A stretch of 64,000 bases of DNA. It comes from a virus (taxonomy: Duplodnaviria > Heunggongvirae > Uroviricota > Caudoviricetes). Below the pieces are notes generated by a model. It made no database searches. It saw nothing but the letters and a program-made list of their open reading frames with translations, and had not been told where the DNA came from. Positions 52,560 through 52,929 of this stretch are shown one piece after another (position 1 is the first letter of the stretch; every line of letters starts with the position of its first letter). Both the position numbers and the translations under genes were made by a program. Location: IMG/VR virus record IMGVR_UViG_3300024268_000012; one strand, 5' to 3'.

Positions 52560-52762
52560 TTTCACCGCCGTGGATGTATGGGGTGGAGTGATCGCGTAGG
52601 CTAGGGGGACGATTTGAACGTCTCTTCTACTTGCGTAGCGTGCTAACCGAGCTGACACTACCCGTTCGCCGCGATCTGGAAGCTCTTGATACCTGCGAGA
52701 GTTTTGCCACCGAGTAATCGCGAATCCTCAGTGCCCGTAGTGGTTGTGCTTCCCTCAACCTC
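52560..52762 (-). ncRNA. Candidate structured RNA with tRNA-like 3' module
   Basis: Consensus promoter TTGACA-17-TATAAT at 52798-52770 (minus strand), no SD-led ORF. Contains D-loop-like AGCTCGGTTAG, a CTAC-GCAA-GTAG hairpin and T-arm-like GACG-TTCAAAT-CGTC (52663-52604). End coordinates approximate. Confidence 0.5.
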
Positions 52763-52929
52763 TGATAGTATTATACTACAAGAGGGATCAAATGTCAATA
52801 CCTTTTTGCAGAAAAAGAAAAAAAAGTTTTTTTCAAAAACCTATTGACATTCCTGCCCACCTATGCTATAATAGTCTCAGTTGGTGAGGGAAACACCGAC
52901 AAGACAAAATGACAAAGGTGGTAATCACA

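What the first reader, a model, noticed from the sequence alone, without database searches (positions are those of the whole stretch)
52560..52798. Antisense-promoted ncRNA ending in a tRNA mimic with a GNRA-capped anticodon arm
Seen on the minus strand: a consensus promoter, a 5' hairpin GGTTG/CAACC, long-range helices (CACTAC/GTAGTG; TCGCGATT/GATCGCGG), then GGG-TA-GTGT CAGCTCGGTTA GCAC-G-CTAC GCAA GTAG-AAG-AGACG TTCAAAT CGTCC-CCC. D- and T-loops look tRNA-like, but the anticodon loop is a tetraloop, the acceptor stem has only 3 bp and there is no CCA. Established: tRNA-mimic domains exist in tmRNA and YrlA Y RNAs. Inference: a decoy for host anticodon nucleases or tRNA-binding defences, or an RNA linked to the recoding machinery.
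Basis: partly seen in the sequence, partly recalled or inferred. Interest (0 to 1): 0.75.

Follow-up and report, generated by a model that had tools for sequence, protein, structure and literature searches.

The report
Modular phage RNA mimicking tRNA elbow
A gut phage carries, among its earliest genes, a conserved ~260-base folded RNA whose centre keeps the corner shape of a transfer RNA but cannot read codons or carry an amino acid; related phages swap several unrelated tRNA look-alikes into such slots, which suggests they bind or distract host proteins that recognise tRNA.

Summary
Real ncRNA gene, larger than flagged: minus strand, about 52763-52503, in the early promoter-cassette array of a 169-kb TAG-recoded gut phage. 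It has three parts: a 5' pseudoknot, a central tRNA-elbow domain (D-arm, 4-bp stub with tetraloop, T-arm, closed by a bulged stem, no CCA) and a terminator stem enclosing a T-loop junction. Eighteen copies of the core keep the fold (98% paired, two-sided changes) and a perfect promoter; it is 94-97% identical in phages only ~56% alike in core proteins. Corrections: the mimic is central, GNRA is not conserved, both long-range helices fail, and no link to recoding appears. One allele carries the YrlA Ro60 motif and the phage encodes a Ro60-fold protein, but 47 kb away, with its own ACAGCAA-tagged RNAs; Rfam YrlA does not match. Sister cassettes hold a permuted mimic, a double elbow and a mini-tmRNA end. 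Best reading: a stable early decoy or ligand for a host tRNA-shape-binding protein (0.45); rival: Ro60-family Y RNA (0.3). The target is inferred, not shown. The scan had already flagged look-alikes on other genomes (e1-1599185, e1-5439363).

The parts
52770..52798 (-). Consensus sigma70/sigmaA promoter of the RNA; +1 inferred near 52763
   Evidence: 12/12 match; hexamers perfect in 14 of 15 homologous units, spacer variable
52844..52872 (+). Divergent twin promoter (inverted-repeat pair) driving the T5orf172-domain gene; it has the same GGTG-AGGGAAA-CACC type of leader
   Evidence: a divergent promoter is present in all 15 homologous units
52678..52760 (-). Domain 1: H-type pseudoknot. Stem 1 is 52760-52756 with 52746-52742; stem 2 is 52753-52748 with 52683-52678; the long loop holds a variable hairpin (52733-52727 with 52714-52708)
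   Evidence: Stem 2 is GGAAGC/GCTTCC, GGGAAC/GTTCCC or GGAAAC/GTTTCC in different phages, ending 1-8 nt before domain 2; weak in L258. The pseudoknot is inferred from complementarity, not folded
52661..52676 (-). 5' strand of the closing arm: 6-bp outer helix, 3-bp GGC helix, GAAC loop, GGG. It contains GGCGAACG (52670-52663), matching the YrlA/Rsr motif GNCGAAN0-1G
   Evidence: Motif definition from PMC4201824; GGC-GAAC invariant in 11 distinct type I alleles while the outer helix varies with compensation; absent from the type II allele
52640..52660 (-). U8-A9 linker and D-arm with a canonical GG D-loop (one extra nucleotide in type I)
   Evidence: 100% paired in 16 distinct sequences
52627..52638 (-). 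Stub replacing the anticodon arm: 4 bp plus tetraloop
   Evidence: 3 of 4 pairs change on both sides between the two alleles; five different loop sequences
52608..52622 (-). T-arm: 4-bp stem, TTCAAAT loop
   Evidence: Stem GACG/CGTC versus GCCG/CGGC in type II; closing G-C broken in L285 and L310
52590..52607 (-). 3' strand of the closing arm (CCC, CTA, GCC, TAC bulge, 6-nt outer helix); no CCA
52530..52573 (-). Domain 3 insert: three-way junction with a 5-bp hairpin capped by a T-loop-like TGNRATT, a 3-bp hairpin with a mostly GNRA loop, and an invariant A-rich linker
   Evidence: Compensatory changes CCAC/GTGG to CACC/GGTG and CGC/GCG to CAC/GTG among 8 sequences; absent in L230 and L285, replaced by a permuted tRNA module in L291
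52503..52588 (-). Terminator-type stem (52588-52579 with 52521-52512) enclosing domain 3, followed by a U-rich tail
   Evidence: The same type of stem closes a short loop before a long T run in L230 and in the empty cassette L289; termination here is inferred
52909..53499 (+). Neighbouring T5orf172-domain gene; not a fixed partner
   Evidence: Pfam PF10544; other genes occupy this place next to the RNA in L279, L281, L283, L285, L299
52119..52397 (+). Convergent 79-aa membrane gene and its terminator hairpin; not a fixed partner

Best explanation
An accessory, early non-coding RNA gene that shows a tRNA elbow to proteins. Shown from sequence: its own perfect host-type promoter, a structure kept by selection, intact D- and T-loops, no anticodon, no free acceptor end, and exchange of the whole unit between distant phages. 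Inferred: host RNA polymerase makes it right after injection; the 5' pseudoknot hides the SD-like leader and with the 3' terminator stem shields both ends; the D/T elbow folds as in tRNA; and, being neither decodable nor chargeable, it works in trans as a long-lived decoy or ligand for a host protein that recognises tRNA shape (a tRNA-targeting defence nuclease or sensor, or a tRNA-processing or RNA-decay factor). The bulged closing stem is a second, sequence-specific contact that differs between the two alleles. The target is not identified.
For: Fold conserved: 98.1% of cells paired and 8 pairs with two-sided change on a plain MAFFT alignment, 0/500 shuffles; RNAalifold finds the same helices unaided; 16 distinct sequences give 98.4%. 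It lies in an array with about one perfect promoter per small gene. Accessory and mobile: 0 of 49 relatives, including 16 near-complete ones, yet 94-97% identical in phages whose core proteins are 56-60% identical; two alleles and empty versions occupy the same slot. The same cassette scaffold in L291 holds a permuted tRNA module. Other early cassettes of the group hold unrelated non-decoding mimics: a CCA-less cloverleaf with a 6-nt loop, a double D/T elbow, a ~120-nt tmRNA-end mimic; none of those checked has GNCGAA or CAGCAA. The recurring feature is thus the elbow, not a Ro60 motif. No conserved ORF. tRNA-targeting defences and phage tRNA countermeasures are established (PMC11464382, PMC11555353; abstracts only).
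Against: No transcript or binding data. The published countermeasures are functional tRNAs, not decoys; I found no paper on an elbow decoy. Several known defence nucleases cut the anticodon loop, which is absent here (own knowledge). Elbow positions are not absolute: L309 changes the D-loop GG and L285/L310 break G53-C61. Most core covariation comes from one split (type I versus II), so independent events number about ten. The invariant GGCGAAC of type I fits a Ro60-type partner at least as well.
Confidence: 0.45

Rival explanations
1. A Y-RNA-like partner of a Ro60-family protein: the bulged closing stem docks on the phage's DUF2828 Ro60-fold protein or on a host Rsr, and the elbow and side domains tether or gate PNPase-like factors, as Yrn1, YrlA and phiLo Yrl1/2 do.
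For: GGCGAACG matches GNCGAAN0-1G in a stem-bulge-stem (PMC4201824; PMC12135203) and is invariant in type I. D-stub-T order is that of Deinococcus Yrn1. The phage's DUF2828/DUF7788 protein folds like Ro60: the 13 best Foldseek hits are Ro60 proteins, best E 2e-7; a major-vault-protein homologue lies next to it. The type II bulge CAGAAA is one base from the CAGCAA handle. L291 has YrlA topology (36.7 bits).
Against: RF02553 does not match the RNA even at E<=10. It is 47 kb from the Ro60-like gene on the other strand, whereas YrlA genes lie within 4 kb on the same strand. DUF2828 is in 16/16 complete relatives, the RNA in 0/16. That protein has at least seven nearby RNAs with a different, CAGCAA handle. 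No canonical TROVE in this phage group. Type II lacks GNCGAA; the motif occurs 134 times in the genome.
Confidence: 0.3
2. A processing signal: the tRNA-like core guides RNase P and a 3' nuclease to cut the transcript and release the flanking modules as separate small RNAs, as mascRNA does for MALAT1.
For: The invariant core sits between variable structured modules; shape like mascRNA (own knowledge); proposed for other phage mimics by earlier agents.
Against: No 7-bp acceptor, no single-stranded leader, no CCA: both flanks are paired in a further helix. In PMC4201824 only the YrlA with a 7-bp acceptor was cut by RNase P. L230 has no 3' cargo; domain 1 occurs without the core (L291, L295); some sister mimics are the only payload.
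Confidence: 0.1
3. The useful element is the divergent promoter and terminator (insulating or damping the early array); the structured payload is a hitch-hiker.
For: Many relatives have such reverse promoters followed only by short hairpins; empty cassettes exist (L289, L304).
Against: The core is far more conserved than its promoter spacer or neighbours and shows compensatory change.
Confidence: 0.06
4. Part of the TAG-recoding switch (for example sequestering release factor 1 or a synthetase until late).
For: The phage is TAG-recoded in late genes and encodes CUA suppressor tRNAs.
Against: Recoded relatives lack it; distant carriers L285, L299 and L311 show no in-frame TAG in the core genes examined (their code is not settled); no anticodon and no chargeable end.
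Confidence: 0.03
5. A decaying tRNA pseudogene.
For: Arms resemble pieces of ordinary tRNA-Met and tRNA-Trp genes, so descent from a tRNA is likely.
Against: Compensatory changes in five of six helices, conserved promoter, conserved stub length, exchange between distant phages.
Confidence: 0.02

Closest known systems
Deinococcus radiodurans Yrn1 (Chen et al. 2014, PMC4201824)
   Same: Unpermuted D, short anticodon-like arm, T order; the long closing stem with the Ro-type motif takes the place of the acceptor; no decoding
   Different: Full canonical D-arm here; extra 5' pseudoknot and 3' junction domains; not next to a Ro60 gene; binding untested
YrlA (Rfam RF02553) and phage phiLo Yrl1/Yrl2 (PMC12135203)
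   Same: D- and T-arm elbow mimic; GNCGAAN0-1G in a stem-bulge-stem (type I allele); the genome encodes a Ro60-fold protein
   Different: YrlA is circularly permuted (T, acceptor, D), this is not; no model match; 47 kb from the Ro60-like gene; motif missing in type II
mascRNA/menRNA (RF01684) and tRNA-like processing elements
   Same: Elbow with a stub in place of the anticodon arm, embedded in a longer transcript (from own knowledge)
   Different: No 7-bp acceptor to be cut by RNase P or to receive CCA; bacterial virus; no Rfam match
tmRNA tRNA-like domain (RF00023)
   Same: Anticodon-less tRNA mimic inside a multi-domain RNA with a pseudoknot
   Different: No chargeable CCA end, no tag ORF, a real D-stem is present; not called by ARAGORN or Rfam
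Phage T4 species 1 RNA (rnaC)
   Same: Phage-encoded tRNA-shaped RNA of unknown function (lead from e1-5319096 and memory, not tested)
   Different: T4's lies in the tRNA cluster; this one is a self-promoted early cassette; homology not tested

Membership tests
YrlA / bacterial Y RNA | GNCGAAN0-1G motif on the 5' strand of the closing stem | tested here: met
   52670-52663; invariant in 11 distinct type I alleles, absent in type II
YrlA / bacterial Y RNA | Permuted order T-arm, acceptor hairpin, D-arm | tested here: not met
   Order is D, stub, T; met only by the sister payload in L291
YrlA / bacterial Y RNA | Match to RF02553 at gathering score | tested here: not met
   No hit at E<=10
YrlA / bacterial Y RNA | Within about 4 kb of a Ro60 gene, same strand | tested here: not met
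   Ro60-fold gene at C1:22996-24510 (-), RNA at about C1:71681-71941 (+)
YrlA / bacterial Y RNA | Genome encodes a Ro60-family protein | tested here: met
   No PF05731, but the DUF2828/DUF7788 model matches Ro60 structures, TM about 0.5
YrlA / bacterial Y RNA | Binds Ro60/Rsr; carries Psi55 and D | not testable with these tools
   Needs biochemistry
Yrn1-type Y RNA | Unpermuted tRNA-like domain with a non-7-nt anticodon loop on the Ro-binding stem | tested here: met
   a resemblance of topology, no sequence model was available
DUF2828-associated CAGCAA-handle RNAs (undescribed; earlier scan notes) | Closing stem followed by a CAGCAA bulge, near the DUF2828 gene | tested here: not met
   Seven or more such RNAs lie in the tRNA cluster; this RNA has no CAGCAA; type II is one base off
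tRNA | 7-nt anticodon loop, 7-bp acceptor, CCA or free 3' end | tested here: not met
tmRNA | Alanine acceptor with CCA and tag ORF | tested here: not met
mascRNA-like / t-element processing signal | RNase P geometry: 7-bp acceptor with unpaired leader | tested here: not met
   Acceptor interrupted after 3 bp (4 in type II) and flanks paired; cleavage itself untested

The most novel reading that the evidence does not exclude
These gut phages use a class of RNA-only early anti-host factors: interchangeable tRNA-elbow decoys (unpermuted, permuted, double-headed, tmRNA-end) mounted in a common promoter-pseudoknot-terminator cassette, that soak up host tRNA-sensing or tRNA-cleaving defence proteins, the tRNA counterpart of RNA anti-CRISPRs and pseudo-antitoxin RNAs.
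Probability: 0.25. Interest if true: 0.85.

Novelty: new variant of a known kind. Interest (0 to 1): 0.58.

Why it matters
Phage counter-defence against tRNA-targeting immunity has so far been shown with working tRNAs. A conserved, horizontally swapped RNA that keeps only the elbow, in several independent designs, would point to decoys and to unknown host proteins that read tRNA shape. If it instead binds a Ro60-family protein, it widens Y RNAs to multi-domain, unlinked phage RNAs and gives a handle on the very common but uncharacterised DUF2828 proteins. Natural allele pairs and empty cassettes make either case directly testable.

Tried and rejected
Rfam (gathering and E-value) and ARAGORN, also relaxed: nothing on this RNA. 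BLAST against cultured phages: only promoter/poly-A matches. Six exact or gapped DNA patterns in IMG/VR and one in GTDB genomes gave only chance hits or ordinary tRNAs, or nothing (with 15, 38, 52, 53, 91). DNA and covariance-model searches of about 50 IMG/VR relatives found none; many records are fragments and a very diverged allele could be missed. Single-sequence folding z-score was 0.44, so stability alone is no evidence; the case rests on covariation. Sequence search of the DUF2828 protein against PDB found nothing; only the fold search did. Rejected: both long-range helices, GNRA as a defining trait, a conserved ORF, a fixed tie to the T5orf172 neighbour, a link to recoding. By eye I saw no hammerhead, pistol or glycine-riboswitch core in domain 1, and Rfam listed none. 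Two Y RNA reviews were not held. Host not identified.

Full report
Setting. The window is part of a 168.7-kb phage record. Reading TAG as sense raises coding density from 58% to 83%, late genes carry many in-frame TAGs, and the genome has 39 tRNA calls including CUA suppressors, 26-53 kb from the finding. The finding lies in a region of small plus-strand genes, nearly each with its own perfect promoter, which I read as the early cassette array. Recoded gut phages of this size class are predicted to infect Firmicutes or Bacteroidetes (bioRxiv 10.1101/2021.08.26.457843); I did not assign clade or host.

Observation. No tRNA, tmRNA or Rfam family is called. The whole strand folds no better than shuffles (z 0.44), but the T-arm alone is unlikely by chance (0.04 expected per early region). 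The unit runs from about 52763 to a U-rich tail near 52503, in the gap between two plus-strand genes and pointing the other way, from a divergent promoter pair.

Homologues. IMG/VR patterns and about 50 related records gave none. A gapped pattern in metagenomes and contigs fetched through neighbouring proteins gave 18 copies of the core. They form two alleles. Type I (12 copies) is 94-97% identical even in phages whose core proteins are 56-60% identical to ours. Type II (6 copies, 65% identical) fills the same slot in near strains of this phage. Neighbouring genes change freely. All units examined point against the array where neighbours are visible and have a divergent promoter; 14 of 15 keep both hexamers perfect. 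Some strains have the cassette empty (L289, L304) or with other payloads (L291, L295).

Structure. Core (52676-52590): on a MAFFT alignment 98.1% of cells pair, 8 pairs change on both sides, none of 500 shuffles reaches this and slid controls give 31-50%; RNAalifold predicts the same helices; the larger model-fitted alignment agrees. Caveat: most changes inside the elbow come from the single type I/II split; independent changes within type I are in the outer helix. The core is a D-arm, a 4-bp stub with a tetraloop of five different sequences, a 4-bp T-arm, and a closing arm of 3 bp, internal loop, 3 bp, bulge and 6 bp. Domain 1 is best read as an H-type pseudoknot: the leader hairpin is generic to this cassette type (it also follows the twin promoter), but only the RNA units supply a downstream partner for its loop, in three compensating versions. 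Domain 3 is a terminator-type stem whose loop holds a covarying three-way junction with a T-loop-like hairpin. Domains 1 and 3 vary in content and length (units of 200-350 nt); there is no conserved ORF.

The Ro60 question. An earlier scan note (e1-1599185) suggested Y RNA, so I tested it. For: GGCGAACG fits the YrlA motif, sits in a stem-bulge-stem like phiLo Yrl1/2, and does not vary among 11 type I alleles while the adjoining helix does; the arm order is that of Yrn1; the phage's DUF2828 protein has a Ro60 fold and lies beside a vault-protein homologue. Against: RF02553 misses the RNA; it is 47 kb from that gene on the opposite strand; the protein is in 16 of 16 complete relatives and the RNA in none; the protein has its own set of CAGCAA-handle RNAs, in normal and permuted tRNA form; type II lacks the motif. 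It fails YrlA membership, though it may work like a Y RNA, possibly on a host Rsr.

The wider pattern. The same scaffold in L291 carries a permuted T-acceptor-D module inside the terminator stem (RF02553 36.7 bits, below cut-off). Scanning fetched early regions for promoter-linked T-arms found further, unrelated designs: a CCA-less cloverleaf with a 6-nt loop (L285, L310), a double D/T elbow (L299), a ~120-nt tmRNA-end mimic (L310) and two more (L035, L075); none has GNCGAA or CAGCAA. The repeated arrival of non-decoding elbows in early, swappable cassettes is the main reason I rank a decoy or ligand role above the Ro60 role. The two are not exclusive.

Mechanism. Shown: promoter, conserved fold, no anticodon or CCA, mobility, independence from neighbours. 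Inferred: early transcription, end protection by pseudoknot and terminator, elbow folding, binding of a host tRNA-shape reader in trans (0.45). Rivals: Ro60-family partner (0.3), RNase P cutting signal (0.1; geometry is wrong and L230 has no 3' cargo), promoter-only function (0.06), recoding (0.03; recoded relatives lack it), pseudogene (0.02). I put the probability that it is a functional ncRNA at about 0.93.

Novelty. No Rfam family fits and my paper searches found no description; I could not check the 10,006 unnamed candidates of PMC10690425 one by one. tRNA mimics in bacteria and phages are a known kind, and this scan has flagged look-alikes and other anticodon-less phage RNAs before. I class it as a new variant of a known kind. 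What is added here is covariation support, the corrected three-domain anatomy, two alleles and the interchangeable-payload pattern. Interest 0.58.

Noticed in passing
G000:C1:22996-24510 (L093:1500-3011, minus) and C1:19947-22418 (L331:451-2919, minus): DUF2828/DUF7788 protein with a predicted Ro60 fold next to a major-vault-protein homologue; DUF2828 is present in 16/16 near-complete relatives
   Followed up: yes
G000:C1 28759-37728, minus strand: At least seven RNAs in the tRNA cluster share a closing stem plus (A/T)CAGCAA handle; bodies range from short hairpins to unpermuted (28875-28759) and permuted (30342-30220; RF02553 30.6 bits) tRNA shapes
   Followed up: partly
L299:16866-17010 (+): Early-cassette RNA with two D-arm/T-arm pairs, the second nested where the anticodon arm would be: a double-elbow tRNA mimic
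   Followed up: partly
L310:13194-13312 (+): About 120-nt tmRNA-end mimic (RF00023 E 5e-7, below cut-off) ending in CCA, without the mRNA part, in an early cassette
   Followed up: partly
L285:9240-9320 (+); L310:13046-13126 (+): Cloverleaf with a 6-nt, variable anticodon loop, 9-bp closing stem and no CCA, behind a structured leader
   Followed up: partly
L291:2460-2750 (-): Same cassette as the finding with a different middle domain and a YrlA-topology module in the terminator loop
   Followed up: partly
L258, L299, L300 (3' of the core); L285, L310: Extra ~80-nt structured modules inserted between core and terminator; no Rfam match for the L299 unit
   Followed up: partly
window 52530-52573 (-): The T-loop-like hairpin plus invariant A-rich linker recalls the paired T-loops of T-box stem I and RNase P that grip tRNA elbows; speculation, untested
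   Followed up: no
L013-L092 early regions; window near 54952 (-): Reverse-strand promoters in relatives are typically followed at once by a GAAATT motif and a GC-rich hairpin, one to three per array
   Followed up: no
window 49550-50368 (+): 272-aa gene with Cys-rich repeats and a DUF2726 (PD-(D/E)xK-like) domain, probably a homing endonuclease, absent at this place in near strains
   Followed up: no
L035-L039, L053, L061, L064-L068, L070: Relatives with no in-frame TAG in three core genes, mixed among recoded ones: the code seems to switch within the group
   Followed up: partly
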